Assembly (NCBI RefSeq): GCF_044704955.1
Contig: NC_091994.1
Span: forward strand, 48,670,001 to 48,734,000
Direction: 5' to 3'
Source: Pristiophorus japonicus
Taxonomy: Eukaryota
DNA: 64,000 bases
A program made the translations under genes and the position numbers. Under the pieces are notes generated by a model. That model saw only the letters and a list, made by a program, of their open reading frames with translations. It made no database searches and was not told the DNA's origin. The first letter of the stretch is position 1. Each line of letters begins with the position of its first letter. Shown here one piece after another: positions 29,830 through 51,060 of the stretch.

Positions 29830-32800
29830 GGGTCTGGTTCAGCCTGGGATATGGGTTGGTGAGGCAGAGTTTGATTCAGTCTGGTTCAGACGTGGTCAGT
29901 GACTGGTGAGGGCGGGCCTTGTTCAGTTTGGGACCGGGCCTGGTCAGTGAGAATATGGTAAAGTCTGGGACACTGTCTGGTGAGGGACATCCTGTCCAGT
30001 CTGCTTCAGACTGGAACAGGGAATGGCAAGGGAGAGTCTGGTTCAGTCTGGGACAGGGAATGGTGAGGAGGGTCTGGTTCAGTCTGGGACAGGGAATGGT
30101 GAGGGAGGGTCCGTTTCAGTCTGGGACAGGGAATGGTGAGGGAGGGTCCGTTTCAGTCTGCTTCGAACTGGGACAGGGGCTGGTGGTGGAGTGTAAGCTT
30201 CTGTCTGTGACAGGGGATAGTGAGGAAAGATCTGGTTCAGTCTAGGAGAGGACATGGTGAGGCTAGCCTGGTTCAATCTGGGACATGGATCGGCGAGCGA
30301 GGGTTTGGCTAAGTCTAATTCAGTCTGGGTAGGAGCTGCTGAGGGAGTATGGAGTGTATGGTTCAATGTGTTTCCGTCTGGGACAGGGGCTGACTGTTAT
30401 ATAAGCATGCATGTATGGTTGTGTGATATCTCGAACACTGAATGTACCCTATCACTGTACACACCTTACCTGTACACCAGAGGGTGCTGCTGCTGGAGAC
30501 CTAAGGGTTACCTGCACACTGCAGGTAATCTAGTATAAAAGGAAGCTCACAGCTTGGTGTCCTCATTCGAGGAGCTGCAAATAAAGGACTATAGTCTATA
30601 CAGTTTAAGTACCATACTCTGCCTTGTGGAGTCATTACTAAAGGTGCCTACATACACTACAACTGGCGATGAGGATACGAGGTAATGAACTACATGCTCA
30701 GCATGTCGAATCTCAGCAACTTTCAGTAATTTACTGATGGGGAAGATTGGGATGCTTTTGTAGAAAGATTGGAACACTTCTTCATAGCCAATGTCCTGAA
30801 TGGGGACGCACCTGCTATACGACCAAACAAGCACAGGGCCATCCTGCTTAGCAGTTGTGGGCCCACCATCCAGTGTCTCATCAGGGACTTGCTAGTCCCA
30901 GCGAATACAACCACCAAAAGCTACGAGGAATTTGTAACACTCATACAGGAGCACCTAAAACCAAAAGAAAGCATCCTCACAGCCAAGCACCAGTTCTACA
31001 CTTACTGGCGACCTGAAGGCCGAGAAATTACTAAGTATGCTGCACATTTAAGAAGACTAGCTGCACTGTGTGATTTTGGAAACCACCTTAATGAAGCACT
31101 GAGGGACATATTTGTCATCGGAATCTGCCACGAGGGCCTCCTGCACAAATTGCTCTCTGCCGACATCACAGTCACCCTGCAGAAAGCAATTCAAATGAGC
31201 CAGGTCTACATGATTTCGGCAGGCGACTCCAGGTGAATACTGACCCAGGACTCTAAACCGTCGAGCGTAGTGCACCGCATGGATACTTCTAAAGGCAGAA
31301 ATGCTGCCCCGAGTCCAGCAACTCTGAGTCCGCTACATGGGGCAAACCGGATGGCTCCATGCTGGCGCTGTGGGGGAAACCACAGGGCACACTAGTGCCG
31401 CTACAAAGACTATGCATGCAAAGGCTGCAAAGAGAATGGGCACCTTCAAAGAATGTGCAGAAAAAGCTATACTCACCGCGTCTCTGATGAGTTGGCTGAT
31501 CACCTGGGCTCCGACACAGATGAAGGTGAAGCTGCTCAATCCCTGGAAGAAGAGTATGGAATTTATACCTGCTCCACCGAAAGTTCTCCGTGGACGATGG
31601 AAGTAGACATCGACGGGGTCCCAATTTCTATGGAGATCGACACAGGGGCGAGCCAGTCTGAGATGAGCCAAACGACCTTTGAAAAACTTTGGATAAATCC
31701 TGCCAATCGACGAAAGCTGCATCCTGTCCAAGCGAAGCTGCTCACCTACAACAAAGGTCAAATTTCGATCCTTGGCAGCGTGACGTCCAGGTCTCCCAGG
31801 GCTGCGTGTTGAACAAACACCCACTGTGGATCGTAGACGGCGACAGTCCCATGCGCTGGGAAGGAATTGGATGAACCCGGTCCAAGTCGGTCGAAGTGGC
31901 AACGGCCTCCGGGCTCCAGCAATCGACATCAAGCATCCAGAAATCCCACCGTCCAGCTTGACTGTGCGGCGACGACTCCACAACATCACGGTGAAATCTT
32001 CAGGACAGAAAACTTCACCTTCCGGGCCAGGGCAGGACTCCAAGAGGTGAACATCATCGAAAGAAGTGGATTCCCGATGCCCATATCTGAACCTGAGGAA
32101 GAAAAGACCACAACAGCCTACCTGGAGGAGAGCCAGAAGATGGCAGCTGCACCACGAGGAGAAGAACCTGCAAACAAAATGGCCGTGGCCAGTCCACGAG
32201 GGGCAACGTTGGAGGAGCGACACATGGCACCGAGCGGCCAATCGGATTGGAAGGCTCCCTTAAAGGAGACCGGTAACCAAAAAAATTTAAAGGGACAATT
32301 TCAACTAAATGAGGACAAGGACTTTAAAACTAAAAGGATGCAAGTATGATAATGTAACTATGAATTGTGATGCTGGTGTAACTAATGTGACAAATGAGAT
32401 GAATGCTTGTGTAAGTAAGGTTAAAAATAAGCTTGTTATGTTTGATGATTATGACAGAGAGTTTGAAATGTCTAATGTAACCATGTCTGGAGAGACCATG
32501 ACAGCAAAAAGTGATGCAAATGTTGTAATTTATAATGTAGGCTCGACTATGTGTGATCAGAGCCAAGGTGTCATGTATACAGGTAGGACACTGCTAAAGG
32601 ACATTGGGTTCTACAGGGACCATGCAAATGCTAACGGAATCCCCCTGTGGGAGATCCCCAAGTCCAGCTGGCTACTAGATCATGTAGCCTGGACCTTTGG
32701 AACAAATGTGATGCCCCTGGAAGGAAACACACACACCCAGTGGGAGTAGTGGTCGATGGGCAGCACAGCCACGACCACTGGCAACCTGCCCCAGACCAGT

Positions 32801-34288
32801 CCTACACCCCCTGACCACCAGGGCCCTCACCAGGAGCGAGAGGCCAATACCCTCCAGCTTCCCTGGCAAACCCTGGGATGGCCGGACCCTCATCCCAATT
32901 GGAGGACAAGAAGCCCACCCAGTCCTGTAGCCCTGCCCACCACCACACAATTACCCACATCACAGAGCATGTGCCCTACCTACTGCTGCTGTGGCTACCC
33001 CCTGAGGGATCCCACAACAGTGACACCCACATGGTCTGTGTGTTGTGGGGGGGGGGGGGAACGTATGAGGCCAGCTTCAAATACAGGGATTGCACCTGGC
33101 ACCCACACAACCTTCACCACAACCTGCCATAGCCCACTACAGATCACCTCCCCAGGTCATAACAATAAGGATATTAAAAATGCTTAGGGGGAGTATTGTT
33201 ATATATGCACGCTTGTATGGTTGTGTGATGTCTATAACACTGAATGTACCCTTACACTGTACACACTTTACCTGTACACTAGAGGGTGCTGCTGCTGGAG
33301 ACCTAAGGGTTACCTGCACACTCAAGGAGTTGCAAATAAAGGATAACAGTCTACACAGTTTAAGTACCAAAGCCTGCCTCGTGGAGTCATTGCAAAAGGT
33401 GCCTACATACACTACACTGGCGAGTGAGGGTCTGGTTCAGACTGTGACAGTGGCTAGTGAGGAGGTTTGATTTAGACTGGTTCAATTGGGGATAGAGCCT
33501 GCTGATGGAGTTCTGTTTCAGTCTGGTTCAGACTGTGACAGTGGCTGGTGAGGGGGTCTGATTCCACCTGGTTCAGACTTGCTCAGTGACTAGTGAGGGG
33601 GGGGCCTGGTTCAGTCTCATTCACACTGGGACAGGGCCTGGTGAGACGGTCTGGTTCAGTCTGGGGTCAGGGACAGGTTAGTGGGGTCTGGTTCAGTTGG
33701 GTGCGACTGGGACGGTGGCTGGTGTGGGAGGCATGGGTCAGTCTGGTTCAGTCTGGGACAGGGGCTGGTGAGGGATATCTGGTTCAGAATGAATCGATTT
33801 GTTTCAGTCTGGTACATTCTCGGGCAGAGGATGTTGAGCAAGGCTTTGTTTCAAACTGTGGCAGTGGCAGGTGAGGGCATTTGATTCAGTTTGGTTCAGT
33901 CGGGAATAGGGACTGATGAGGTAGGTCTGGTTCAGTCTATGATAGAGGCTGGTTTGGGAGGTTCTGGTTCAGTCCGGGACAGGCCCTTGTGAGCGTGACT
34001 TCTCGTTTAGTCTGGGACAGGCTCTGTGAGGGGGGCCTGGTTCAGTCTGAGACATGTTCTGTTGAGGGGCAGGGGGGGTCTGGTTTTGTCAGGGATAGGG
34101 GCTCGTGAGGGGGGTCTGATTCAATCTGGGACATTGGATGGTCCAGATTGTGACTATTGCTGGTGAGGAAGATTTGGTTTAGTCTGGGACAGTTACCGAT
34201 GAGGGAGATTCAAGTTCAGTCTTGGACATGGGCAACTAGAGTTGTTTTGGTTCATTCTGATACAGACTGTGACTGTGGCTGGTGAGGA
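29830..34288 (+). repeat. Degenerate G-rich satellite (CTGGTTCAGTCTGGGACAGGGGCTGGTGAGGG-like), interrupted by an LTR element
   Basis: Dozens of approximately 30-45 bp units at 29830-30394 and 33417-34288. Confidence 0.9.
30395..33416 (+). mobile_element. Non-autonomous Gypsy-type LTR element (gag-protease only)
   Basis: LTRs 30395-30661 and 33197-33416; TSD CTGAC/CTGGC; PBS TGGCGATGAGGAT at 30664; PPT AGGGGGAG; gag 30769-31236; protease IDTGA; no RT or IN. Confidence 0.9.
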
Positions 34289-37200
34289 TCATAAGAACAT
34301 AAGAACATAAGAAATAGAAGCAGGAGTAGCCCATTTGGCCCCTCGAGCCTGCTCCGCCATTCAATAAGATATTGGCATGATCTGATCATGGACTCACTTA
34401 ACGAATATGATATAATTGGGATTACGGAGGCATGGCTCCAGGATGACCAAGGTTGGGAACTCAACATCCAGGGGTATTCAGCATTCAGGAAGGATAGACA
34501 GAAAGAAAAAGGAGGTGGGGTGGCGTTGCTGGCTAGAGAAGAAATTAATGCAATAGTAAGGAAGGACATTAGCTTGGATGATGTGGAATCTGTATGGGTA
34601 GAGCTGCGAAATACCAAAGGGCAGAAAATGCTGTGGGAGTTGTGTACAGTGCACCAAACACTAGTAGTGAGTTTGAGGACAGCATCAAACAAGAAATTAG
34701 AAATGCGTGCAATAAAGGTACAGCAGTTATCATGGGCAACTTTAATCTACATATAGATTGGGCTAACCAAACTGGTAGTAGTAAAGTGGAGGAGGATTTC
34801 CTGGAGTGTATTAGGGATGGTTTTCTAGACCAATATGTCGAGGAACCAACTAGAGGGCAGGCCATCCTAGACTGGGTGATCTGTAACGAGAAAGGACTAA
34901 TTAGCAATCTTGTTGTGAGAGGCCCCTTGGGGAAGAGTGACCATAATATGGTAGAATTCTTTATTAAGGTGGAGAGTGACATAGTTAATTCAGAGACTAG
35001 GGTCCTGAACTTTAGGAAAGGTAACTTCGATGGTATGAGATGTGAATTTGCTAGAATAGACTGGCGAATGATACTTAAAGGGTTGTCGGTGGATAGGCAA
35101 TGGCAAACATTTAAAGAGCACATGGATGAACTTCAACAATTGTACACCTCTGTCTGGCATTAAAATAAAATGGGGAAGGTGGCTCAACCATGGCTAACAA
35201 GGGAAATTAGGAATCGTGTTAAATCCAAGGAAGAGACATATAAATTAGCCAGAAAAAGCAGCAAACCTGAGGACTGGGAGAAATTTAGAATTCAGCAGAG
35301 GAGGACAAAGGGTTTAATTAGGAGGGGGAAAATAGAGTATGAGAGGAAGCTTGCTGCAAACATAAAAACTGACTGCAAAAGCCTCTATAGATATGTGAAG
35401 ACAAAAAGATTACTGAAGACAAACGTAGGTCCCTTGCAGTCAGAATCAGGTGAATTTATAATGGGGAACAAAGAAATGGCAGACCAATTGAACAAATACT
35501 TTGGTTCTGTCTTCACAAAGGAAGACACAAATAGCCTTCTGGAAATACTAGAAGACTGAGGGTCTAGCGAGAAGGAGGAACTGAAGAAAATCCTGATTAG
35601 TCAGGAAATTGTGTTAGGGAAATTGATGGGATTAAAAGCCGATAAATCCCCAGGGCCTGATAGTCTGCATCCCAGAGTACTTAAGGAAGTGGCCCTAGAA
35701 ATAGTGGATGCATTGGTGATCATTTTCCAAGTCTATCGACTCTGGATCAGTTCCTATGGACTGGAGGGTAGTTAATGTAACACCACTTTTTAAAAAAGGA
35801 GGGAGAGTGAAAACGGAGAAGTATAAACAGGTTAGCTTGACATCAGTAGGGGGGAAAATGTTGGAATCAATTATTAAAAATGAAAGAGCAGCGCATTTGG
35901 AAAGCAGTGACAGGATCGGTCCAAGTCAGCATGGATTTATGAAAGGGAAATCATGCTTGACAAATCTTCTGGAATTTTTTGAGGATGTAACTAGTAGACT
36001 GGACAAGGGAGAACCAGTGGATGTGGTGTATTTGGACTTTCAAAAGGCTTTTGACAAGGTCCCATACAAGAGATTAGTGTGCAAAATTAAAGCACATGGT
36101 ATTGGGAGTAATGTACTGGCGTGGATAGAGAACTGGTTGGCAGACAGGAAGCAGAGAAGCGGGATAAACGGGTCCTTTTCAGAATGGCAGGCAGTGACTA
36201 GTGGGGTGCCACAGGGCTCAGTGCTGGGACCCCAGCTACTTACAACATACATTAATGATTTCGATGAAGGAATTGAGTGTAATATCTCCAAGTTTGCAGA
36301 GGACACTAAGCTGGGTGGCGGTGTGAGCTGTGAGGAGGATGTTAAGCGGCTGCAGGGCGACTTGGACAGGTTAGGTGAGTGAGCAAATGCATGGCAGATG
36401 CAGTATAATGTGGATAAATGTGAGGTTATCCACTTTGGGGCAAAAACACGAAGGTAGAATATTATCTGAATGGCGGCAGATTAGGAAAAGGGGAGTTGCA
36501 ACGAGACCTGGGAGTCATGGTACATCAGTCATTGAAAGTTGGCATGCAGGTACAGCAGACGGTGAAGAAGGCAAATGGTATGTTGGCCTTCATAGCTAGG
36601 GGATTTGAGTATCAGAGCAGGGTGGTCTTATTGCAGTTGTACAGGGCTTTGATGAGGCCTCACCTGGAATATTGTGTTCAGTTTTGGTCTCCTAATCTGA
36701 GGGAGTGCAGCGAAGGTTCACCAGACTGATTCCCGGAATGGCAGGACCGACATATAAGGAGAGACTGGATCTACTGGGCCTGTATTCACTGGAGTTTAGA
36801 AGAATGAGAGGGGATCTCATAGAAACATATAAAATTCTGACGGGACTGGACAGGTTAGATGCGGAAGAATGTTCCCGATGTTGGGGAAGTCCAGAACCAG
36901 GGGACATGTTCTTCGATAAGAGGTAAGCCATTTAGGACTGAGATTGTAGTGTCTCTGCACCTTGTTACAAAATCACACGAGGCATGTATATCACAGACAC
37001 AGTCATTCTGTGACCTTCCTTTATTCCCAGGGTGGGACCTCCCCTTTTATACCTGGAAACCCAGGTGAGGAGTGTCTCCCGCAAGCTCAACCCCTGTGGT
37101 CAGGGTGTGCATTTCAAGGGTACAGGTACAGTGTGCATGAGTTACAGTTACATAACTATTGTCATTGCAAGATGGTGAAATACATGACATCACCTCCCCC

Positions 37201-38149
37201 CTTGAGTCTTTTTGTTTCAGAGGTTAAGTCTATCAGGTGGTTGACGCTCTCTCATGTAGCGCCACAGTTGTGGCTCTAGTGGCTGAGTCTCAGCACGCGT
37301 CTCTGTCACTTGAGGTGATTCCGGCTTGTTCGGGCTGGCCGCAGGCATTGTGCATGCTGAGGGCTGTCTTTGTTGCTTGTACACTGGCAGTGGTGTGGGT
37401 GCTATCTCATCATGCTCTTCTTCCGGTTCCTCCGTGTCTATGCTGAACCTTGTCTTTACTTGGTCCAAGTGTTTGCGGCATATCTGCCCATTGTTTAGTC
37501 TGACCACCATGACCCTGTTTCCTTCTTTGCCAATTACGGTGCCCTCAAGCCATTTGGGTCCCAAAGCATGGTTAAGAACAAATACCGGGTCATCTATTTC
37601 TATACACCTCCCCCTTGAGCCTCGATCATGGAGCTCGTTTTGGGACTGGTGCTTGCCCTCAACAATGTCTGCCAGGTCTGGGTGAATGAGGGACAGCCGC
37701 GTCTTGAGCGTACGTTTCATGAGGAGTTCCGCTGGTGGGACTCCTGTGAGCGAGTGCGGCCGGGACCTGTAGGCCAGCAGGAGGCGCGATAGGCGGTAAT
37801 GAAGGGAGGGTCCTTGGATGCGTTGCATACCCTGCTTTATGACTTGGACCGCCCGTTCAGCCTGGCCATTGGAAGCCGGCTTGAACGGTGCTGTCCGGAT
37901 GTGCTTGATCCCATTGCCCGACATAAACTCCTGGAATTCATGGCTGGTAAAACACGGGCCATTGTCACTGACCAGGATGTCCGGCAAGCTGTGGGTCGCG
38001 AAAACCGTACGCAGACTCTCCACTGTGATGGATGTCGTGCACTAGTTCAATATGATGCATTCCATCCACTTCGAGTATGCATCGACTTCGATCAGGAACA
38101 TTTTCCCCATGAACGGGCCCGCATAGTCGACGTGAATACGTGACCATGG

Positions 38150-38826
38150 TGTGGAAAGTATTTTTATCTAAGCTGATACCATACGGTATTTGTGTGCCTT
38201 TTGATTAAAATGGAGTCCTGGCCCTTCCAGAACTTTCTGCATTTTAGCAGTCAGCTTGCATAAACAGCTAAACCTGCTGTGAGATGGCTGATGGCCATCA
38301 GACAGCTAGGAGACAAGTCATGCTGAGACAAGTAACCCCCATGGTGCTCTCCTATTGTCTACACTACAGGAGTTCCATGTCACCCCACCCTTATCTTCTA
38401 GCCATTATCTCTTTCCGAGACCTCATCCATTTGATGCAAACAGATAAACTGACCAGGAAATTGAAACAATCCTGACACAATACAAGACAGGTGATAGCCC
38501 ATTACCTATGACTCATGGAGTAATGGCCGTTTGGCTTTCTGATAACCCTGACAAAAGGAAATATCTGGACACCATGTCAGGACCAGGATATAGTAATTAA
38601 CTCTTTATCTGTATTCACTGACTGTGAGACAGAGCAATACACAGGGAGAGGCCAGAACTTTGGTTTTACTGTATAAATATCTTGTTAAACTGAACCATTT
38701 CGGAGGTGTTCATTTAGCCCTTGACTGAGTGAAACCTACCCCTTGCGAGCAAGTAAATTAAAAAGGAAACTTCTACCGGAGCTGTAAGTGTCGGAGTCAT
38801 TCTTTTCGGAGGTCGAGATTTCGACA
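38150..38826 (+). repeat. ERV-1 5' LTR (677 bp)
   Basis: TG...CA; TATAAA at 38672; ATTAAA at 38757; no difference seen from 46550-47226. Confidence 0.98.
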
Positions 38827-38831
38827 GTTAT

Positions 38832-38849
38832 TGGAGGTTCCACCGAGAT
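38832..38849 (+). promoter_or_regulatory. Primer-binding site, tRNA-Gln
   Basis: TGGAGGTTCCACCGAGAT is the complement of the vertebrate tRNA-Gln 3' end. Confidence 0.92.
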
Positions 38850-39797
38850 GCATACTCTCTGTTCTGTGAGTAAAACGGATACAGGCATAGTGCCTCTCCA
38901 GTGAAAGGCTTCGGTGGCCAAACAAGGTGAGCCTTTGCTCACAAGAGGTTTCTTCACTGTTGAATCGCAGATGTAATCTGTTGTCCACAGCTGAGGTACT
39001 GCATCTACAAGACTCGGCATTTAAAAGTTAAAGGTATTTTTTTTATAACCATTTCTTTCTCAGCTCGCCAGCAGAAGAGAACAGGTTCTGGAAAAAAAAC
39101 CTCGAGACAGCCCGGGGAAGGTTTCAGTAGGTAAGGGAGCGCTAGTCGATCGAAAAGGGTTCCAGGTTCTTATGTGATAAGATTTTTATTGTTTTTAATT
39201 CGGAAGGGGTTCTTATGTGATAAGACTATTAAAAAAAAAGAAAAAAAGAAAGCGCTAGTCGATCGAAGGTTCTTATGTGATAAGATTTTTATTGTTTTTA
39301 ATTCGGAAGGGGTTCTTATGTGATAAGACTATAAAAAAAAAGAGCGCAATCGATCAAAGAGTTTGGGTACGGAACCTTAAGTTTTATCAGTTTTTATTAG
39401 GATAAGTTAAGGACTCGGTCTGTAGTGGCGTACAACGCAGACTGAGAATTTGTTTAGAGGTTATGATTTGTGTACTCACGGGAATATTGTTTGTTGTCCT
39501 TGTATTACTGTTGTGTGCAATACCTTTGTGACTCATTGCCATTAGAGAAATGGGAAGAGTCACTAGGGAAAGTTGTGATTCGAAAAAAAAAAACACAAGG
39601 ATTGATTAGGAAAAGAAACAGTAACTGATTGATCAACTACGATTGGTTCGTGCCAACATATCTCACACACCCAGACTGAGCCCGAATTAAGAGCCTTTTC
39701 AGGCCACGTAACGGCCAGGAGAAGTGGGCGTAGAGAACTCGGTTGGCCGAAAGGATTGTGAGATCAGAAACTGTGGAAAAATCTTAAATCATCCAGA

Positions 39798-41540
39798 ATG
39801 GGGGCTGGAGCAAGTAAACCACCACCAAAAGGGACCCCACCCCATTTTATGCTCCAGAATTGTGGTCAGTCTTCAATTGACCACCTAAGAGAATGGGTAA
39901 AATGGACTAAGGGTGAAAACAGGCCATTTCCACCCGATGGTTCATTCAATTTAGAGAGAATAACCTGTCTAGAAGAATGCCTTATAGACAGAGACCCAGG
40001 TAGAAGAGGGAAAAAAAAAGTGAATTGGTCAGCGTTTGGAGATTGGAAAAGGGAAGCTGAGGAACGACACGAGAAGAGCCTAAGAGTTAGCAAGCAGTGT
40101 ACTAGAGGGAGAAAGCAGGGGGATGAACGGGTAGAGCAGGTGAATCGCCCTCGACATAACAAACACCCATCCGTTATGGTTGCTAAAGAGACAAAGGCAC
40201 ACTCACCTAGGGCTCCTGAGGGTTGGGATAAGGATGAGGATGAGGACCGGGATGAGGATTGGACTCCCTACAGCCATCGACCACCGCCGTATGTTCCATC
40301 CCCGGGGGGTGCTCCAGGCCAAGGAGGAGACGATCCTCGGGCCGGAGTACAGGGAAACGGGGTAATACCCGCTCCCAACAATACAGGTGCGGCTGCAGGA
40401 AATATAAGTCAGTCACAAGGGAATCAATACCGTGACGGCCCTGCAGGGGGCACACGAAGTCATACCCGTGGACCAGAGCCCGTTGCCCTGGAGCCATCAT
40501 CATCTGCATACCCAGTAAGACTTTTTCCCAGTCCACTCTCTGGGGGGGCTCCGGTCCCTATTTATCGACCATGGTCACCAAGTGAATTAAGAATAATTGT
40601 GGAAGGATTGGCAGACCCCAAAACCAATATTGAAAAGGCCATAGACCAGTTAAAAGTAATCATCTTGTGCCACGAACCCAGTATATTAGATGGTCAAATC
40701 TTACTGAAAGCATGGTTAAAGGACACAAAATTTGCCGAACTTGAGATAAAATTCAAAGATTTTAAAACCCATCGAGAGGCTCCGGATGCAGATCCCAGCA
40801 CGAAGCCAGGAGAGGGGTTCTGGGGAAGATGTTGGGAAGCCTTACATTCGGTGTTCCCGAGGAAAACGAATTGGTCCAAAATTATGGAAACTACACAAAG
40901 AAAGGAGGAGGATGTTGAGGATTATGTAGAAAGAGTGCGAGAGATCATGAACCAATGTTCAGGCATGAAAATGGAGGAGGTAGAAGCTCCTATGATCAGC
41001 GCCGTGGTAAACGGGCTACGGCCCGAACTCAGAGATCCCTTTAAACTAGTTTGTCTCGGATGGCGACAGGAATCGCTATCCAAGGTTGTATCTATGTTAA
41101 AGGACATACAAGAGCGAAATAGAGAATCTAGAAGCAAGGTCACCATGTTTGTAGGACAAGCAGCTCCAATGACACCCACCCCGGTGACACCGTCCTACGG
41201 CCCGCCCCAGGGTAGAGGAAGAGGGCGAGCCAGAGGAGGATATTACAGGGGAAGAGGGAGAGGAGGTGCAGGGCAGGAACAATATGATACCTGTCACAAT
41301 TGTGGACAGATTGGACACTGGGCTAGAACTTGCCGGGCAAAACAGCAACAACCAAATCATGATTGGACTCAACAGGCAGGTAATAGAGCACACCCTCCCC
41401 CTTCAGAACCCAACCCGTATGCGACCCAAGTCCAGGTACATGCTAGACCTCAGACTAATTTCTCTGTGCAAGATCCATTTGGATCACAGAATCAAAAGCA
41501 ATTCGGCCAACCACCAAATTGCCCGTATAATGATCAATGA
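39798..41540 (+). CDS. gag: ERV-1 Gag, intact, 580 aa
   Basis: MGAGAS myristoylation signal, PPPY late domain, capsid (YRPWSPSEL), CHNCGQIGHWARTC knuckle. Confidence 0.96.
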   Translation: MGAGASKPPPKGTPPHFMLQNCGQSSIDHLREWVKWTKGENRPFPPDGSFNLERITCLEECLIDRDPGRRGKKKVNWSAFGDWKREAEERHEKSLRVSKQCTRGRKQGDERVEQVNRPRHNKHPSVMVAKETKAHSPRAPEGWDKDEDEDRDEDWTPYSHRPPPYVPSPGGAPGQGGDDPRAGVQGNGVIPAPNNTGAAAGNISQSQGNQYRDGPAGGTRSHTRGPEPVALEPSSSAYPVRLFPSPLSGGAPVPIYRPWSPSELRIIVEGLADPKTNIEKAIDQLKVIILCHEPSILDGQILLKAWLKDTKFAELEIKFKDFKTHREAPDADPSTKPGEGFWGRCWEALHSVFPRKTNWSKIMETTQRKEEDVEDYVERVREIMNQCSGMKMEEVEAPMISAVVNGLRPELRDPFKLVCLGWRQESLSKVVSMLKDIQERNRESRSKVTMFVGQAAPMTPTPVTPSYGPPQGRGRGRARGGYYRGRGRGGAGQEQYDTCHNCGQIGHWARTCRAKQQQPNHDWTQQAGNRAHPPPSEPNPYATQVQVHARPQTNFSVQDPFGSQNQKQFGQPPNCPYNDQ

Positions 41541-44500
41541 CGCCCAATCCCAGACCCGAGTGCTGCGAACAAACAGCTACCCGTCGTTTCGTTAAATGCC
41601 ATAGGAGAACCTGAAGTAAAAATACGAATACAAGGAAAGGATGTCCCATTCCTAGTGGATACTGGTGCCACCTATTCGGTCCTTTCAAGGGAGGATACGA
41701 GGGGAATTCCCACTTCCACTAATCAAACCTCAGTGAGTGGACTATCTGGACACGCACAGCAAATGTTTTTCTCCAACCCTATCAATGTACAAATAGAGGA
41801 TTACGAAGATAGTCATTCATTCCTACTGTCTAAGGAGGTTCCAGTGAATCTGTGTGGACGTGACCTGTTATGTAAAATGAATGCCACGATCCTCTGTTCC
41901 CCAGCTGGTCTGGAGGTTCGAGTCCCCATAGATAAATGTGGCGCATATCCACTACTTCAACCCACAACTCCCATTTTGTATGCCTGGGAAAATTTGGACC
42001 CCACACTAAGCAAAACCCTATCCTATTTGGTTGGTTCATATTGGTGTGTAACAAGGTTAATCACAGACTACCTCAAATCTCAAACCTTGGGCAAGTGGTA
42101 CGAAACATTACACTGCACAGCATATTGTGACAAAACGGGATCAGACGCTACAGCACAAATCTTTTATCAACCATTCCTGCACCAGAAACATCAATTGATG
42201 ATCGAAAAAATCTTTATCGGACCCGAAGGGATAGCGGCAGGGGTTGAATTATCCTCCCACAGTCAGAGCTTGTTTAGGGTTAAAGGGAGCATTCCACACT
42301 GCACCCTTGCGGTTGCAGGCACGTATAAACCCCAGGATTTAGGACGAATGGTTAAAAGAATGCAAGGATCCCCAGTACAAGAGGAATGGCACACACGTAA
42401 TGGAACTTTGGGGCAACATGAAAGGGGGGGAGGCTATTCTGTCAAGTTGAATGGGAAAATATACTTCGATGCTGTCTTAGAAGAAAGGATGCTCTCAGCC
42501 ACTAGCTTCCCAGTACGACAAAGCACAGCAGAGCTTCTTGCTAAAGTTCCAGAACAACTATGGTCTACACACGCTAATGAAGTAGGAAGGATGCTCACCG
42601 CACAACCCTATAAGGTAGCGATCAATTCAACCGCCCCGCTCCCCAAGAAGCCTCAATACCCCTTGTCCCCAGCCGCAGAACAAGGTATTGAGCCAGTCAT
42701 TAAGTCCCTGCTGGCCCAGGGAGTAATCGTTCCAACTAGAAGTCCATGTAACACACCGATCTTTCCGGTGCAGAAGCCCAATAGTGACAAATGGAGATTT
42801 GTCCAAGACCTACGAGCCGTGAATCATTTGGTATTCCCAACTTATCCAGTGGTACCCAACCCGGCAATTATACTTGCCAGTATTCCGGCATCCTCAACGT
42901 ATTACACAGTAGTTGATCTGTGTTCAGCATTTTTCTCAATACCCATTCACCCAGAGTCTCAATTCCTGTTTGCCTTCACGTATAAAGGACACCAATATAC
43001 GTGGACAAGACTCCCGCAGGGATTTACCGAGAGCCCTACCATATTCTCACAGTGCCTAAAGAGGGATCTGGAAGATGTAATTTTACCAGCAGGTTCTACA
43101 CTTGTGCAGTATGTTGACCACTTATTGCTCGCCTCACCCTCCAAATTGGCCTGCGAAACGGACTCCCTTGTGTTATTAAAAGCTCTGGCCTCGAAAGGAC
43201 ACAAGGTGTCAAAGGCAAAGTTACAATTTGTCTCAGAAAAGGTTCGGTATCTAGGGCACGAATTGGTCAGAGATACGAGACAATTGACACAAGACCGAGT
43301 AAAAGCAATCTGCTCTGCCCCACTACCAGTAACCAAGAGAGAAATGAAACACCTCCTCGGCATGACAGGATACTGCCGACAATGGGTTACGAGTTATTCC
43401 GAGATTGTTAGACCACTGTTAGACATGTCCATGCCCGCACTACCAGAGAAGTTGATTTGGAATGAGGTATCCCGGAATGCTTTTCAGAACCTTAAACAGT
43501 CCCTCACTTCAGCACCCGCCTTGGGATTACCAGATTACACTAAGCTATTCAACTTATTTGTGCATCACAAGTCGGGTTTTGCACAATCTGTTTTGACTCA
43601 GTTACATGGGGACAGGCAGCGACCGGTAGCGTATTTCAGTACCTAACTAGACCCAGTGGCACGCGGACTACCAGGATGTCTTCCTTCGTTGGCAGCAGCT
43701 TATTATGCTATGCAACAGGCTCAGACAATCAAAAATGCAGAACAAGTGGAAAATCTCCTGCGAGCCATTCAATGCCCTTTGAAACTTGCCATTATCAAAT
43801 GCCAAGCACATACAGGCCAGTCGAATGAGGTGGCACTTGGGAATGCCAGAGCTGATAATGCAGCTAAGTCAGCAGCTCTGTCGAAAGGGGGGATGCAGGT
43901 GTCATTGTTCCCACTAAGGAAAAATAATTGCTCAGACCCGCCACCCACTATTAATGACGTGCTGGCCTTTCAGACACAGGCCAGTACGGAGGAGGTGGTG
44001 ACCTGGACGAAGGATCAATGTTATAAAAATCCAGAAGGAATATGGGTTCACCATGACGGCCGCGTGGTGGCCCCTAGATCCTTACTTCCATGGATTGCCC
44101 GATGTGTTCATACATTCACACATGCAGGCAAAGGGGGATTGGCAGATTATATTTTAGCAACTTGGTATGCACCAGGTATTTCGGCAATTGCAAAACAAAT
44201 CTGTGAAAATTGTGTTACCTGTCAGACAATGAATCCGGGTAAGACGGAAAAAGTAGAATCTGCCTCCCACCCAAATCCAGTCGGGCCTTTTGTACATTTA
44301 CAAATGGATTTTATTGAATTACCTATGTGTATGGGATTCAAGTATGTATTAGTTATTGTAGATGTGTTCTCTAGATGGATTGAAGCCTTTCCATGTAAAA
44401 AGGCCGATGCCACTACTGTTGCTAAATGTTTGTTAAAAGAAATTGTACCGCGCTTCGGAATCCCTGCTAAGCTTTCCAGTGATAACGGGTCACATTTCAC

Positions 44501-45125
44501 GGGAACTGTTATAAGAGAAATGTGTAAAGCTTTACAGATTAATCAACGTTTTCATTGCAGTTATCATCCACAATCAGCTGGACTTGTTGAAAGATATAAT
44601 GGAATGCTTAAAAATAAGCTGGCAAAACTATGCAATGACACTGGACTGAAATGGACAGAACTGCTGCCCTTAGCTTTGATGGTAATGCGATCTGCAACCA
44701 ACAGAACAACAGGCCTGTCACCGCATGAGATAGTTATGGGACGTCCCCAACGACTACCTTTTACAGCACCATTTACTGCAAAACAGATGGACATCCACAA
44801 AATGGAGGAAAATATGTTAAATTATTGTATTGCACTAACCAAATGTATTTCCAGCTTTCATTCACAGGTAAAGGAAGCCCAAGTCAAGCCAGCGGAAGGG
44901 AAGTGTCATAACCTGGAGCCAGGGGAATTCGTTTACATCAAGATTTTTAAAAGGAAAAGCAGTCTACAGCCAAGATTCGAAGGACCATACCAGGTCTTGC
45001 TGGCGACCAATACTGCAATCAAGGTAAAGGAAAGACCAACATGGATCCACGCATCCCATTGCAAACGGGCACCCGACCAGGAGGAAGGGACGAAGGAATC
45101 AGAGGAACAGAAAAAGGAAGACTGA
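41541..45125 (+). pseudogene. pol: ERV-1 Pol (PR, 2H phosphoesterase, RT, truncated RNase H, IN), defective
   Basis: In frame with gag after TGA; VDTGA; LPQG; YVDH instead of YxDD (43110-43121); TAA at 43644; RNase H deletion near 43730; intact-looking HHCC/DDE integrase. Confidence 0.94.
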
Positions 45126-46519
45126 ATAAGGAACTGTATGGACTATGGGGACTGATGGTGCTGGGCTTGACAGGGTTTTACTTCACATTATTGATTACAC
45201 CAGGGGTACAGACCCACCACCGAAGGGAATTGCACGTAAACGTATTTATGGCACTGAGTCATAGGTATGCTCAAGAAAGAAACTTGTCGAGTTGTTGGAT
45301 ATGTTCCCATGTACCTGTCCACTCCAGGGGGGGTATTCCCCTGAGATCTGTCCCCTTTAACGAATCAGAAATGGTAGAATGGTTGACAGTGCAAAACAGG
45401 ACAAAACTAACTAAGGGGCCAGAAACGAAGGAGCAAACAGAATGGAGGTCGGCAGAGTATAAACTTACAGCCTTCCAGGGATGGTACCAGCCCAATTATG
45501 ATAATAACCATCAGCCTCCCTTCCTAAGCATTACTCCCAGAATAGGAAATCCTGAAGGTATAATATGCCTAGTGAGTAATGAGACTAAAGGACCAGAAAT
45601 GGGACGCAGCAAGTGTTCCCAAATGATTAAATGGCAAGCCACAACTAATCCCACTGAGAGAAAGATAGCAACCGTTGGCTGGACAACGGTCCATAACAAA
45701 GCCCCAGGTAAAGGGTGGGAAGGTGAGACCACTCGAGTAGGGACAGTGCGAAAGGACCAGGAGCTGACGTCCTATAATTGCACCTACTTTATTTGTGGCC
45801 ATAAAGCCTACCCATGGTTACCAGCCAACTGGACAGGGTCCTGTTACTTAGGATATGTGGTACCCCTTATCAGATCAGTAAGGACTCTAAGGGAGGCCTA
45901 TGGAAGCCACAGATTTAAACGGGATTTGACGTGGCTAAACGGAATATTCAAGGTAATGGTGCCACCCTATGGAATAGCATCGACCGAATGGCAGTTACGG
46001 GAACTGGCTAACTTAGTAGAATCAGTAGCCAACGCAACTTCCCAAGCCTTTGAAGGGATAAATGACGAAATGGTAGCTATTCGAACAGTGGCTCTCCAAA
46101 ATCGTATGGCCTTAGATTATCTCCTAGCCAAGGAGGGAGGAACATGCGCATTAATAGGTGAAGAATGCTGTACGTATATCCCAGATAAATCAGAAGATAC
46201 CGGCAGTCTAGCTGAAAACATCAGGAAAAAGGTAATAGAGTATAAACAGACAGTTGGCCAGGACGGTATCACCTTGTGGGGTTGGGCATCAGGATGGTTG
46301 GGAGCCCTGGGGAAATCTGTGGTACAGGGTTTGATCATATTCCTGCTGATAGTCTTCGTCCTGTATCTATTATTTGTCGTCATTAAGTGTTGCTGTGCCA
46401 GGGTGGGAGAAACTATGTTACCTACCGAGACCACGGCTAGAGTTATGGTAGCAACAACTGCTGAAGGCTCTTGTGTAGAAATGGAAATGGAGAGACTGTA
46501 CAAGATCAGAATGGATTGA
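45041..46519 (+). CDS. env: ERV-1 envelope, intact ORF of 492 aa
   Basis: Hydrophobic signal, CWIC, RFKR, ISD LQNRMALDYLLAKEGGTC, CALIGEECC, TM; the true start codon may be downstream. Confidence 0.95.
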   Translation: MDPRIPLQTGTRPGGRDEGIRGTEKGRLNKELYGLWGLMVLGLTGFYFTLLITPGVQTHHRRELHVNVFMALSHRYAQERNLSSCWICSHVPVHSRGGIPLRSVPFNESEMVEWLTVQNRTKLTKGPETKEQTEWRSAEYKLTAFQGWYQPNYDNNHQPPFLSITPRIGNPEGIICLVSNETKGPEMGRSKCSQMIKWQATTNPTERKIATVGWTTVHNKAPGKGWEGETTRVGTVRKDQELTSYNCTYFICGHKAYPWLPANWTGSCYLGYVVPLIRSVRTLREAYGSHRFKRDLTWLNGIFKVMVPPYGIASTEWQLRELANLVESVANATSQAFEGINDEMVAIRTVALQNRMALDYLLAKEGGTCALIGEECCTYIPDKSEDTGSLAENIRKKVIEYKQTVGQDGITLWGWASGWLGALGKSVVQGLIIFLLIVFVLYLLFVVIKCCCARVGETMLPTETTARVMVATTAEGSCVEMEMERLYKIRMD

Positions 46520-46549
46520 GTTGTCCTTGTGAAGGACAAAATGGGGGAA

Positions 46550-47226
46550 TGTGGAAAGTATTTTTATCTAAGCTGATACCATACGGTATTTGTGTGCCTT
46601 TTGATTAAAATGGAGTCCTGGCCCTTCCAGAACTTTCTGCATTTTAGCAGTCAGCTTGCATAAACAGCTAAACCTGCTGTGAGATGGCTGATGGCCATCA
46701 GACAGCTAGGAGACAAGTCATGCTGAGACAAGTAACCCCCATGGTGCTCTCCTATTGTCTACACTACAGGAGTTCCATGTCACCCCACCCTTATCTTCTA
46801 GCCATTATCTCTTTCCGAGACCTCATCCATTTGATGCAAACAGATAAACTGACCAGGAAATTGAAACAATCCTGACACAATACAAGACAGGTGATAGCCC
46901 ATTACCTATGACTCATGGAGTAATGGCCGTTTGGCTTTCTGATAACCCTGACAAAAGGAAATATCTGGACACCATGTCAGGACCAGGATATAGTAATTAA
47001 CTCTTTATCTGTATTCACTGACTGTGAGACAGAGCAATACACAGGGAGAGGCCAGAACTTTGGTTTTACTGTATAAATATCTTGTTAAACTGAACCATTT
47101 CGGAGGTGTTCATTTAGCCCTTGACTGAGTGAAACCTACCCCTTGCGAGCAAGTAAATTAAAAAGGAAACTTCTACCGGAGCTGTAAGTGTCGGAGTCAT
47201 TCTTTTCGGAGGTCGAGATTTCGACA
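46550..47226 (+). repeat. ERV-1 3' LTR
   Basis: Copy of 38150-38826 preceded by PPT. Confidence 0.98.
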
Positions 47227-50200
47227 ATGGCCTGGTGGGCCAGGGCCACGGGTTGAGTGGAGCCTCCCTGGGAGCATTGCCCAGCTGGGCACACGTCATG
47301 CATCTGCGAACCCAGTGTTCCAGGTCTGAGTCAATCCCCGGCCACCATACATGTGACCGGGCAATGGCCTTCATTAACACAATGCCAGGATGCTCGCTGT
47401 GGAGTTCCCTGATGAACACTTCCCTTCCTTTCTGGGGCATGACTACCCGGCTGCCCCATAACAGGCAGTCGGCTTGGATGGAGAGTTCATCCATCCGTCT
47501 CTGAAACGGCCTGACTTCCTTGGGGCATGCCCTGTGTGCGGGCGCCCAATTCCCAGTCAGGACACATTTCTTTATCATGAATAGGAGGGGGTCCCTGTTG
47601 GTCCAGAGTTTGATCTGTCAGGCTGTGATGGGGGAGCCCGCAGTGTCAAAAGCCTCAACGGCCATGACCATCTCGACGCTCTGCTCCGACGCCCCCTCGG
47701 TGGTGGCCAGTGGGAGCCTGCTGAGTGTGTCAGCGCAATTTTCGGTGCCTGGCCGGTGCCGTATGGTGTAGTCATACGCAGCCAGCGTGAGGGCCCATCG
47801 CTGTATGCGAGCTGACACGTTAGCATTGACAGCCTTGCTGTCGGACAACAGGGATGTTAACGGCTTGTGGTCCGTCTCTAGCTCGAACTGTCTACTGAAA
47901 AGATACTGGTGCATCTTTTTCACACCGTACACACGCGCGAGTGCCTCCTTCTCGACCATGCCGTATCCATGCTCTGCCTGGGAGAGCGACCTGGAGCCGT
48001 AAGCCACCGGTTGGAGTCAGCCGTCATCGTTACCCTGCTGCAATACACACCAATCCCGTAGGATGACGCATCGCATGTTAAAACCAGTTTTTTATAAGGG
48101 TCATACAAAATCAACAGTTTGTTGGAACACAGCAGGTTCCTCGCCTTATTGAAAGCCCGTTCTTGACAATCCCCCCAAAACCATTCACAACCTTTATGGA
48201 GGAGCATGTGTCACGGCTCCAACAATGTGCTTAAGTTTGGCAGAAAGTTCCCAAAATAGTTCAAAAATCCCAAGAACCATCGCAACTCCGACGTGTTGCC
48301 GGGCCTGGGCGCCCGGTAAATCGCCTCAGTTTTTGATTCAGTGGGCCAGATCCCATCTGCGGCAACCCTCCTGCCCAGGAACTCGACCTCTGAGGCCAGA
48401 AACACGCACTTGGCCTTTTTCAGCCGCAAGCCTACCCAATCCAATCGGCGTAGCACCTCCTCCAGGTTGGGGAGATGTTCCTCGGTGTCTCGACCCATTA
48501 TAAGGATGTCGTCTTGGAATACGACCATTCCAGAGATGGACTTGAGCAAGCTTTCCATGTTTTGCTGAAAGATAGCTGCTGCCGAACGAATGCCAAACGG
48601 GCACCTGTTGTAGACAAATAATCCTTTGTGCGTCGTGATGGTGGTCAGAAGCTTGGAATCTTCCGCCAGTTCGTGAGTCATGTAGGCCAAAGTGAGGTCC
48701 AGCTTCGTGAACAGCTTTCCACCTGCCAGCGTGGCAAAGAGGTCCTCCACTCTCGGAAGCGCGTATTGGTCTTGCAGCGACACTCGGTTGATGGTGGCTT
48801 TGTAGTCGCCACAAATCCTAACCGAGCCATCTGCTTTGATGACGGGAACGATGGGACTTGCCCAGTCGCTGAATTCAATGGCCGAAATTATGCCCTCTCT
48901 GAGCAGCCTGTCCAGTTCACTTTCAATTTTCTCACGCATCACGTACGGCACCGCTCTGACTTTGTGGTGCACTGGTCTGGCATCCAGAGTGATGCGTATC
49001 ACTACTTTAGTGCCCTTGAATGTACCGACACCGGGTTGAAACAGTGACTCGAATTTTTGCAAGACCTGCGAGCATGAACTTCGCTCCACAGATGAAATGG
49101 CGTGCACATCCCCCCATTTCCAATTCATCTCAGCTAGCCAACTCCTCCCCAAAAGCGCGGGGCCATTTCCCGGAACAATCCAGAGTGCAGCCGGTTCTGT
49201 AATCCATTATGCGTTACCACCAAGTTTGCACTGCCCAGCACTGGGATTATCTCTTTGGTGTACGTACGTAGCTGCATCTCAATGCATTCCAGTTTGGGTC
49301 TGCTAGCTCTGTGTGGTCATAGTCTCTCAAACTGTTGGCCGCTCATGAGTGACTGACTAGCTCCCGTATCCAGCTCCATGTGCACCGGGATGCCATTCAG
49401 TAAGATTTTCATCATCATGGGTGGCGTTTTAGTATATGAGCTATGGACGTCAACCACATGAACTCTCTGAGCTTCCGCATCCATGGTTGTTCCCCAGGCC
49501 TCATTATGCATTGCAGACCCCTCGTCTGGTTCCTCTGTCTCGCATACTAGCCTCGCTACTGCCTTTTTGCACATCCTGGCCAAGTGTCCACTGACATTAC
49601 AAATCCTACAGGTATAAAGCTGGAACCTGCAGCTTTTGGCAGTGTGTCTACCCCACACCTCCAACATGAGCTGAGATTGCTGTTAACAAAAGAACTATTC
49701 CAAGGCATTCCTCTCTGATGGCCCGTTTGGCTGTTTCTAAGCATCTGAATGGTCCCATCACGGGATGCATTGTTCCTCATGATGGCGTGAATTGCCGATC
49801 CCCTTTCCATTGTCCCTGTTGCAGGCCCACACTGGAGCTTATTGCTGCCTGGGTGGTGTTGAATTGCCCTTTCCTGCCTGCCTGGGCGGTGTTGAATTGT
49901 CCTTGGCTGCATGCGGGGTTCTGTATCACTTTTATAACATTAACTCCCTGGTTCATCGCAACGTTAAAACCAGGGCTGCGTGTGTAAATTAGCTTGGTCT
50001 CCTCTTCCCCTGCCATAAAGGTCTGAGCTATCAATGCTGCCCCTTCTAAAGTCAGGTCCTTGGTCTTTATAAGCTTCCTGAAAATGCCGGCATGATTCAT
50101 GCCCTCAATGAAAAAGTCCCTTAACATCTCCCCCCTGTAGGCATCAGAGAACTTACTGAGACTGGCCAAACGCCGCAGTTCCGCCACAAAATCCGAGACA

Positions 50201-51060
50201 TTTTGACCATCCCGATGCCGGTGAGAGTAGAACTGGTGCCGAGGCCATGTGTACGCTACTTGCTGGCTTGAGATGCTCACTGATCAGCTGGCTGAGCTCT
50301 TCAAAGGACTTGTCCGCTGGCTTTTGGGGTGCGAGCAGGTCTTTCATCAACGCATACGTCTGTGGACACATCTGGTCTGTAGATGCGCCCTCCGCTTGTC
50401 AGCCGCTGTCTCTTCCAGCCAGTCCTTTGTGACAAAGCTCTTCTGGAGTCTTTCCACAAAGTCGTGCCAGTCCTCACCCACACAGTAGCGTTCCTCTGTG
50501 CCACCGGTGGCCATCCTTGTTGTTCGGTGATTCCCGTTTCTCGTCGCCAGATATAGTGTTTGTATAGTGTTACAAACTCACATGAGGCATGTATATCACA
50601 GACACAGTCACTCTGTGACCTTCCTTTATTCCCAGAATCAAAGAGTGCTGACCCTTGGTGGGACTCCCCTTTTATACCTGGAAACCCAGGTGAGGAGTGT
50701 CTCCCGCAAGCACACCCCCCTGTGCTCAGGATGTACATTTCAAGGGTACAGGTACAGTGTGCATGAGTTACAGTTACATAACTATTGTCATTGCAAGATG
50801 GTGAAATACATGACAGAGATGAGGAGAAACTTCTTCACAGAGAGTTGTTAACCTTTGGAATTCCCTACTGCAGAGAGTTGTTGATGCCAGTTCATTGGAT
50901 ATATTCAAGAGGGAGTTAGATATGGCCCTTACAGCTAAAGGGATCAAGGGGTATGAAGAGAAAGCAGGAAAGGGGTACTGCGGTGAATGATCTTATTCAA
51001 GGTGGTGCAGGCTCGAAGGGCCGAATGGCCTACTCCTGCACCTATTTTCTAGGTTTCTAT

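What the first reader, a model, noticed from the sequence alone, without database searches (positions are those of the whole stretch)
41950..42520. 2H-phosphoesterase (CNPase-like) domain embedded between protease and RT in a young shark retrovirus
Seen: about 190 extra aa separate the protease from RT, with two intact HxT motifs, LHCTA (42111) and PHCTL (42297), 62 aa apart. Known: paired Hx(T/S) motifs define the 2H phosphoesterase fold (vertebrate CNPase LHCTT/AHITL; coronavirus NS2 and rotavirus VP3 2-5A phosphodiesterases; phage Acb1). CNPase-like inserts have been noted in some teleost retroviral pol genes, so the domain type is not wholly new, but I know of no established function for it there. 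Inference: a virion-packaged, protease-released enzyme that destroys innate-immune nucleotide messengers (cGAMP, 2-5A) or repairs 2',3'-cyclic-phosphate ends on primer tRNA. It lies upstream of all pol lesions, so this copy could still express it.
Basis: partly seen in the sequence, partly recalled or inferred. Interest (0 to 1): 0.85.

Follow-up and report, generated by a model that had tools for sequence, protein, structure and literature searches.

The report
CNPase-like enzyme domain in shark retrovirus
A young endogenous retrovirus of a shark carries, between its protease and reverse transcriptase, a domain predicted to fold like the host enzyme CNPase; such domains were already noted in fish retroviruses, and this one is likely an optional, host-facing enzyme that would open cyclic-phosphate nucleotides or RNA ends, with an active site that has worn down several times in this virus family.

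Summary
Observation confirmed. A 187-residue insert (41949-42509) with two His-Cys-Thr motifs 62 residues apart sits between protease and RT of a provirus with identical LTRs. Its model (pLDDT 90) matches mouse CNPase at Z 19; viral 2-5A and cGAMP phosphodiesterases score Z 5.5-7.2. Both motifs are intact in 109 of 124 homologues (named ones: teleost and skate ERVs). The domain type is known from fish retroviruses, and this scan found it before in four other cartilaginous-fish windows.

Added here: (1) aromatic-Pro sites flank it, like predicted protease sites; (2) it is under purifying selection (omega 0.44), looser than PR/RT (0.15/0.13), like env (0.40); (3) its active site eroded repeatedly: a 13-copy clade replaced the first His by Tyr while RT stayed constrained, most of these copies lacking env, and the window's own subfamily has Cys at CNPase's base-stacking Phe235 position; (4) 2-5A is an unlikely general substrate because ray-finned fish lack RNase L; (5) the same fold matches walleye-retrovirus Env.

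Best reading: an accessory 2',3'-cyclic-phosphate hydrolase, probably weakened in this subfamily. No activity or expression was shown. New member of a known kind.

The parts
38150..38826 (+). 5' LTR (677 bp), preceded by target-site copy ATGG
38832..38849 (+). primer-binding site (TGG-led; tRNA-Gln by recall, not tested)
   Evidence: one search shows the sequence; tRNA identity recalled
39798..41540 (+). gag ORF (580 aa, zinc knuckle) ending in UGA in frame with pol; context UGACGC resembles ZFERV UGACGA; readthrough inferred
41577..41948 (+). aspartic protease (DTGA at 41658, GRDLL at 41856); ends approximate
41949..42509 (+). CNPase-like 2H phosphoesterase domain, 187 aa between predicted cleavage sites GAY|PLL and TSF|PVR
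42111..42119 (+). first catalytic motif His-Cys-Thr (aligns with mouse CNPase His230/Thr232)
42126..42128 (+). Cys at the position of CNPase base-stacking Phe235 (Tyr/Phe in 117 of 129 homologues)
42297..42305 (+). second catalytic motif His-Cys-Thr (aligns with His309/Thr311)
42330..42365 (+). predicted helix equivalent to CNPase alpha7 (PQDLG, conserved Gly)
42510..43646 (+). reverse transcriptase, broken: catalytic motif reads YVDH (43110), stop at 43644
43647..45125 (+). remnant RNase H (deletion of about 550 bp near 43730) and integrase, cut off by the stop
45140..46519 (+). env ORF, open (TLV_coat)
46550..47226 (+). 3' LTR, identical to the 5' LTR, followed by ATGG

Best explanation
The insert between protease and RT is predicted to fold as a bare CNPase catalytic domain that is likely packaged as part of Gag-Pol, likely cut free by the viral protease, and would open 2',3'-cyclic phosphates to 2'-phosphates as a likely optional, host-facing function. 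Steps: (1) shown: in frame with PR and RT behind the gag UGA. (2) Predicted: CNPase fold with both His-x-Thr motifs and helix alpha7, without CNPase's N-terminal domain or prenylated tail. (3) Inferred: made by stop readthrough, packaged at Pol levels, released as a 187-residue protein. (4) Inferred from homology: substrates are 2',3'-cyclic nucleotides or cyclic-phosphate RNA ends, the products of host RNases; the benefit would be removal of RNA-decay signals during infection. (5) Shown: the site is not maintained in every germline lineage; inferred: the window's subfamily is a weakened enzyme on CNPase-type substrates.
For: Fold: Z 19.1 (rmsd 2.9, 180 aligned) to CNPase against 9.2 for the next entry; fungal Trl1 kinase-CPD is next at 13.1. 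Alpha7, described as CNPase-specific and as possibly setting stereospecificity and substrate size, has a counterpart helix 127-138 whose Gly aligns with CNPase VQTG and is kept in 118 of 128 homologues. Both motifs intact in 109 of 124 homologues and in 18 of 20 copies of a second shark ERV family. Flanking Tyr-Pro and Phe-Pro are kept in 48 of 48 young, 12 of 12 Tyr-clade and 12 and 14 of 15 old copies, and match the sites at the predicted CA and IN starts. Net omega 0.44 (0.23-0.86) against PR 0.15 and RT 0.13; env 0.40. A 13-copy clade with His to Tyr inserted independently with RT omega 0.06; 8 of 11 of them lack env. The fold also matches Env polyproteins of WEHV1 and WDSV, so it is not tied to RT.
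Against: No activity was measured, and 2H enzymes change substrate readily (Doherty 2025). Three more [FY]P[VLI] sites lie inside RT, so the pattern does not prove cleavage. The Phe235 position is Cys in 47 of 48 young copies and F235A lowers mouse CNPase kcat/KM from 1.70 to 0.03; the Arg307 position is Ile. This family is demonstrably copied in trans (14 of 14 further env-less elements lack the whole domain), so His-less copies may have been complemented. The His/env link is one event, 3 of 11 Tyr copies keep env, 2 of 3 Arg copies and one domain-deleted copy keep env, and omega of the domain on the Tyr stem (0.45, 0.19-1.13) is no higher than on the young stem.
Confidence: 0.55

Rival explanations
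1. The domain is a cGAMP (cyclic dinucleotide) phosphodiesterase that blunts cGAS-STING sensing of reverse transcripts.
For: Viral 2H enzymes have gained this activity several times. cGAS is present and interferon-induced in zebrafish. Env-like omega and loss in an env-less lineage fit an immune role. A Pol-derived enzyme would be delivered with the core (inference).
Against: Acb1 scores Z 6.8 and penguinpox cGAMP PDE Z 5.5 against 19.1 for CNPase. Alpha7 is kept, and is thought to limit substrate size. Neither Nomburg 2024 nor Doherty 2025 mentions retroviruses in the main text.
Confidence: 0.15
2. In this family the domain is largely non-catalytic: a folded spacer, a decoy for host CNP or its partners, or a decaying relic.
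For: Cys at the Phe235 position in the most prolific subfamily. His replaced by Tyr in one clade and by Arg in 3 copies. The fold seems still constrained on the Tyr stem (omega 0.45). Host CNP is an interferon-induced inhibitor of HIV Gag assembly.
Against: The anti-Gag activity of host CNP maps to N-terminal Asp72 and C-terminal prenylation, both outside this domain. The two His are among the most conserved columns (122 of 127, 124 of 129) and intact in 47 of 47 young copies, although those were picked by similarity in this domain.
Confidence: 0.13
3. A housekeeping step of reverse transcription: it heals cyclic-phosphate ends on primer tRNA or genomic RNA inside the virion.
For: Position next to RT. 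Mammalian CNP can replace the yeast tRNA-ligase CPD (cited). Distances in the domain and RT trees correlate (Spearman 0.80, 29 elements).
Against: A His-less clade spread with its own RT under strong constraint (omega 0.06). Omega is about three times that of RT. The fold also sits in Env of walleye viruses. Most retroviruses have no such domain (own knowledge). CNPase leaves a 2'-phosphate beside the 3'-OH, a doubtful primer (inference).
Confidence: 0.12
4. A 2-5A phosphodiesterase that blocks RNase L, like coronavirus ns2 and rotavirus VP3.
For: This shark genome has an OAS cluster (16 OAS1_C exon matches), and the pathway exists in cartilaginous fish.
Against: RNase L was lost in the ancestor of ray-finned fish, where nearly all named homologues with intact motifs occur. 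ns2 scores Z 7.2 and VP3 Z 5.9-6.6.
Confidence: 0.05

Closest known systems
2H/CNPase domains of fish retroviruses (Mazumder 2002 and Basta 2009, neither held; as cited in PMC9503650 and PMC4977317)
   Same: Epsilon-like fish retrovirus with a CNPase-type 2H domain; 94 longer proteins, mostly teleost pol, match the profile, nearly all between PR and RT where those motifs are present.
   Different: Shark host; long branch, at most 27% identity to the 28 other elements in the tree; very large young family; active-site erosion traced across subfamilies. In WDSV and WEHV1 the structural match is to Env, not Pol.
Vertebrate CNPase catalytic domain (PDB 2xmi, 1woj; goldfish RICH 2i3e; Pfam PF05881)
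   Same: Fold over 180 residues (Z 19.1), both His-x-Thr motifs, alpha7 counterpart.
   Different: 17-20% identity; no Pfam match; no N-terminal PNK-like domain or CAAX tail; 62 residues between motifs against 79 in mouse; Cys for Phe235, Ile for Arg307.
Fungal tRNA ligase Trl1 cyclic phosphodiesterase (PDB 6u05)
   Same: Next closest fold (Z 13.1, 156 aligned); a cyclic-phosphate-opening enzyme.
   Different: 8% identity; works with kinase and ligase domains that the virus lacks.
Viral immune-evasion 2H PDEs (MHV ns2 4z5v, rotavirus VP3 4rpt/6o3v, Acb1 7t27, penguinpox 9bkq)
   Same: 2H fold and motifs; accessory, virus-encoded.
   Different: Z only 5.5-7.2; they lack alpha7 by the statement in PMC4643303 that it is CNPase-specific; none is described here as part of a retroviral polyprotein.

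Membership tests
2H phosphoesterase superfamily | two His-x-Thr/Ser motifs | tested here: met
   42111 and 42297; 109 of 124 homologues
2H phosphoesterase superfamily | two-lobed 2H fold with the motifs on beta-strands | tested here: met
   model strands E54-60 and E116-122; the top 21 rows of the wide search are 2H-type proteins by title or recall
2H phosphoesterase superfamily | His-dependent phosphoesterase activity | not testable with these tools
   needs an assay
Vertebrate CNPase | catalytic-domain fold with beta5-alpha7 loop and helix alpha7 | tested here: met
   Z 19.1, model 1-181 on 160-378; helix 127-138; Gly aligned. No residue-level superposition was available.
Vertebrate CNPase | Pfam PF05881 match above cut-off | tested here: not met
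   no hit; the genome scan finds only the host gene; 2 of 41 homologues reach E 0.01, below cut-off
Vertebrate CNPase | base-stacking aromatic (Phe235) | tested here: not met
   Cys in the window and 47 of 48 young copies; Tyr/Phe in 117 of 129 homologues
Vertebrate CNPase | Arg307 two residues before the second His | tested here: not met
   Ile; Ala/Val in 102 of 129 homologues
Vertebrate CNPase | ribose-binding Tyr168 | tested here: inconclusive
   a conserved Tyr/Trp pair lies on the first strand, but the register to CNPase is ambiguous
Vertebrate CNPase | N-terminal PNK-like domain and C-terminal prenylation motif | tested here: not met
   the domain is flanked directly by PR and RT
Fish-retrovirus CNPase-like insert | 2H domain in an epsilon-like provirus between PR and RT, homologous to teleost ERV inserts | tested here: met
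   UGA gag stop as in SSSV/ZFERV
Fish-retrovirus CNPase-like insert | same placement as the elements described by Basta 2009 / Mazumder 2002 | not testable with these tools
   papers not held; the review says only 'additional open reading frames'
Fish-retrovirus CNPase-like insert | single origin with the teleost inserts | tested here: inconclusive
   tree distances correlate with RT, but a clade of window plus host CNP is not rejected, p-AU 0.26
Viral 2-5A phosphodiesterases (ns2, VP3) | hosts have an OAS-RNase L pathway | tested here: inconclusive
   OAS present in this genome (RNase L itself not searched); pathway lost in ray-finned fish, where most named homologues occur
Viral 2-5A phosphodiesterases (ns2, VP3) | cleaves 2-5A | not testable with these tools
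   needs an assay; structural Z 5.9-7.2 only
Viral cGAMP phosphodiesterases (Acb1, avian poxvirus) | closer fold to Acb1/poxvirus PDE than to other 2H clades | tested here: inconclusive
   Z 6.8 and 5.5 against 19.1 for CNPase; a fold shows no function
Viral cGAMP phosphodiesterases (Acb1, avian poxvirus) | cleaves cGAMP | not testable with these tools
   needs an assay

The most novel reading that the evidence does not exclude
Fish retroviruses package a stolen CNPase that destroys 2',3'-cGMP and cyclic-phosphate RNA fragments, the ligands that RNase T2 makes for TLR7 and TLR8. It would be a viral counter to endosomal RNA sensing of a kind I did not find described, carried inside the particle whether fused to Pol or to Env, and shed when a lineage stops infecting and copies itself inside germ cells.
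Probability: 0.12. Interest if true: 0.85.

Novelty: new member of a known kind. Interest (0 to 1): 0.46.

Why it matters
Retroviral Pol is expected to hold only protease, RT/RNase H, integrase and sometimes dUTPase. A host-derived RNA-end enzyme kept across teleost, skate and shark retroviruses was flagged in 2002 and, in the searches run here, has no functional test. This family makes the question testable: the domain has clear ends, folds confidently, and natural copies give a series with a full site, a site without the stacking aromatic, and a site without the first histidine. The natural role of host CNPase is itself unsettled, and the host protein is antiviral, so a viral copy could point to the substrate that matters.

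Tried and rejected
Single-sequence searches missed the fold: Pfam, PDB phmmer 0 hits, word-index search 0 of 1835 candidates. P0002 was dropped as a repeat-protein artefact. The ESM Atlas gave no answer. A single-sequence model of PR-domain-RT failed (pLDDT 31) and was not used. A recent capture from the shark's own CNP was rejected (26% identity over 85 columns), but the older origin is unresolved. A pattern count of the Tyr clade found nothing and is uninformative. An independent test of the His/env link failed, because the 14 new env-less elements lack the domain. Uncorrected dN/dS (0.30) overstated constraint and was replaced by the transition-weighted estimate. Basta 2009, Paul 2006 and Mazumder 2002 were not held. 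No functional test of a retroviral CNPase-like domain turned up in the listings of searches; the library lacks most subscription journals, and no supplements were read (those of Nomburg 2024 and Doherty 2025 could list retroviral 2H domains). No complex was predicted.

Full report
Setting. The finding lies in a provirus at 38150-47226. The LTRs are identical over 677 bp and flanked by a 4-bp duplication. Gag (39798-41540) ends in UGA in frame with pol, in a context like that of ZFERV and SSSV; readthrough is inferred. Pol is broken downstream of the domain: RT motif YVDH, stop at 43644, about 550 bp missing in RNase H. Env is open. The host is a shark: its CNP exon equals a Pristiophorus japonicus record. 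The family is large: 1453 candidates, 150 scored at 95-100% identity, about 30 of them (my count of the table) in an open 1380-codon frame. Domain residue numbers below count from 41952.

Observation. Two His-Cys-Thr motifs begin at 42111 and 42297. Pfam and a single-sequence PDB search did not identify the insert. A full HMMER scan gave 41 hits, 40 of them retrovirus-like pieces and one artefact. A profile of the window plus 34 of these (A1) ranked CNPase/RICH chains in 23 of 24 PDB hits and found 94 longer proteins among 7987 candidates; the named ones are teleost elements and one skate element. The model is confident (pLDDT 90). It matches CNPase at Foldseek E 1e-10 and Z 19.1, rmsd 2.9, 180 residues. 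Next come fungal Trl1 (13.1), bacterial CPDase/LigT (8-9), MHV ns2 7.2, Acb1 6.8, rotavirus VP3 5.9-6.6 and penguinpox PDE 5.5. Among viral models the best hits are an unnamed 1072-residue entry and the Env polyproteins of WEHV1 and WDSV (E 3e-11 to 7e-9); the output gives no position within Env.

Active site. Of 132 homologues, 124 cover both motifs and 109 keep both; the spacing is 59-67, mostly 63. A second shark ERV family (2440 candidates) keeps both motifs in 18 of 20 copies read. Helix 127-138 corresponds to alpha7, which Raasakka 2015 calls specific to CNPase and possibly responsible for stereospecificity and substrate size. The gap-free alignment puts window residue 59 on mouse Phe235. 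This position is Tyr or Phe in 117 of 129 homologues and Tyr in most older shark copies, but Cys in 47 of 48 young copies including the window. In mouse CNPase, F235A lowers kcat/KM from 1.70 to 0.03 and His230 mutants to 0.01-0.02. The neighbouring Tyr58 might compensate; I could not inspect coordinates.

Processing. The domain is bounded by GAY|PLL and TSF|PVR, 187 residues apart, resembling SAY|PVR at the predicted capsid start and SLF|PLR at the predicted integrase start. Both sites are kept in 48 of 48 young and 12 of 12 Tyr-clade copies, and in 12 and 14 of 15 old copies. Three more such patterns lie inside RT, so release is inferred, not shown. That aromatic-Pro bonds are typical retroviral sites is my own knowledge.

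Selection. I used pairwise net divergence between groups, with transition weighting (kappa 5) and a codon bootstrap. For 47 young copies against 11 older copies found by RT DNA: domain 0.44 (0.23-0.86), PR 0.15 (0.04-0.39), RT 0.13 (0.06-0.24). For the window against 7 older copies: env 0.40 (SU 0.58, TM 0.24), domain 0.43, PR 0.20, RT 0.16. Left out: duplicate fetches, twin loci (L021, L044, L072), intermediates (L040, L093, L094), Arg copies and L081. The young copies were picked by similarity in this domain, which biases their motif counts.

Repeated loss. A clade of 13 loci (support 1.0) carries Tyr, or a lesion derived from it, at the first His; three other copies carry Arg. Of 10 Tyr-clade loci examined, 8 show their own LTR match (93-98%), and the 5 with a visible 5' end have different flanks, so they are separate insertions. 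On their stem RT omega is 0.06 (0.01-0.16), domain 0.45 (0.19-1.13), PR 0.67 (0.23-2.20) and env 0.78 (0.45-1.58; 2 against 7 copies). Of 11 with env assessed, 7 show one shared env deletion junction, 1 more lacks the env core, and 3 keep env. Of 15 older His copies none shows the junction, 13 have env sequence past it and 2 gave no match. Against a simple reading: this is one event; 2 of 3 Arg copies and a domain-deleted copy keep env; and 14 further elements with the junction have no domain in the 5.7 kb upstream and most lack the bulk of gag-pol, which shows copying in trans and allows complementation.

Origin. In 29 non-redundant elements, domain and RT tree distances correlate (Spearman 0.80, Mantel p 0.001) and the domain evolves about 1.6 times faster, though the topologies differ in places. 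Eight cartilaginous-fish CNPs form their own clade (100/100); the window is a long branch, and grouping it with CNP is not rejected (p-AU 0.26). A recent capture is excluded by 26% identity; one old capture is likely but not shown.

Mechanism. I commit to an accessory 2',3'-cyclic-phosphate hydrolase (0.55). The fold, alpha7 and nearest relatives give the chemistry; env-like constraint, repeated loss in germline lineages and the match in Env make it host-facing rather than part of reverse transcription. 2-5A is unlikely as the family's substrate (0.05) because RNase L is absent from ray-finned fish, although this shark has OAS genes. cGAMP stays possible (0.15). A non-catalytic or relic role (0.13) fits the window's subfamily best; a decoy of host CNP is weakened because its anti-HIV activity needs Asp72 and prenylation. 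Primer or genome-end repair gets 0.12. The boldest version: 2',3'-cGMP is the natural TLR7 pocket-1 ligand and cyclic-phosphate fragments engage TLR8, and CNPase has a pH optimum of 6, so a virion-borne copy could destroy these ligands when particles are digested in endosomes. This is inference only (0.12), and those data are from mammals.

Prior knowledge. Naville and Volff 2016 (PMC4977317, passages) report CNPase ORFs in ray-finned fish ERVs, citing Basta 2009. Iyer 2022 (PMC9503650, passages) lists 2H domains in fish retroviruses and WDSV, citing Mazumder 2002. Those two originals and Paul 2006 were not held; I saw nothing of them. Other papers: PMC4643303 (passages and Table 1), PMC10761555, PMC5434554, PMC10400998, 10.1101/693333, PMC11470960, PMC13517186 (passages); 10.1101/2025.08.21.671373 (first fifth, and a term search with no retrovirus mention); PMC11410667 and PMC4422223 (term searches only, no hits). 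No supplements were read. No functional test appeared in the listings of searches. The scan's own notes hold four similar findings in other cartilaginous-fish genomes, none by sequence or in this genome; they are not independent support.

Verdict. Real and correctly identified. It works like a CNPase catalytic domain but is not a member of vertebrate CNPase (several defining features not met); it is a new member of the known fish-retrovirus inserts. What is added here is the record of active-site erosion and the narrowing of the substrate question. Interest 0.46.

Noticed in passing
BFVD entries Q9WHI8 and A4GTG3: The domain model matches Env polyproteins of walleye epidermal hyperplasia virus 1 and walleye dermal sarcoma virus, so the fold seems to have moved between pol and env; position and motifs in Env were not seen.
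   Followed up: no
L180-L193: Fourteen env-less elements sharing one deletion junction also lack the domain and most of gag-pol: a non-autonomous derivative family copied in trans.
   Followed up: partly
L135-L154: A second, distant ERV family in this genome (related to a skate element) carries a shorter version of the domain between PR and RT, with motifs mostly intact.
   Followed up: partly
window 36950-50850: The provirus sits inside a reverse-strand Gypsy-type element (integrase, RT and gag pieces on both sides; repeats at 36963-37189 and 50568-50815), itself flanked by LINE RT fragments: a nested insertion.
   Followed up: no
window 39164-39341: A 75-base repeat with 103-base spacing in the 5' leader, with A-runs.
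   Followed up: no
window 38827-38849: Five bases separate the LTR end from a TGG-led primer site that I recall as complementary to tRNA-Gln.
   Followed up: no
G000:C8:218.42-218.60 Mb (L175-L179): A cluster of at least five OAS1_C-bearing gene copies, two with a stop in the matched frame.
   Followed up: no
P0134 / L031: The host CNP of this shark has a shorter loop before the second motif than other cartilaginous-fish CNPs, and Thr where most have Gln at the start of alpha7.
   Followed up: no
window 30000-34250 and 54680-55950: Arrays of a degenerate 37-base satellite on both sides of the nested elements.
   Followed up: no
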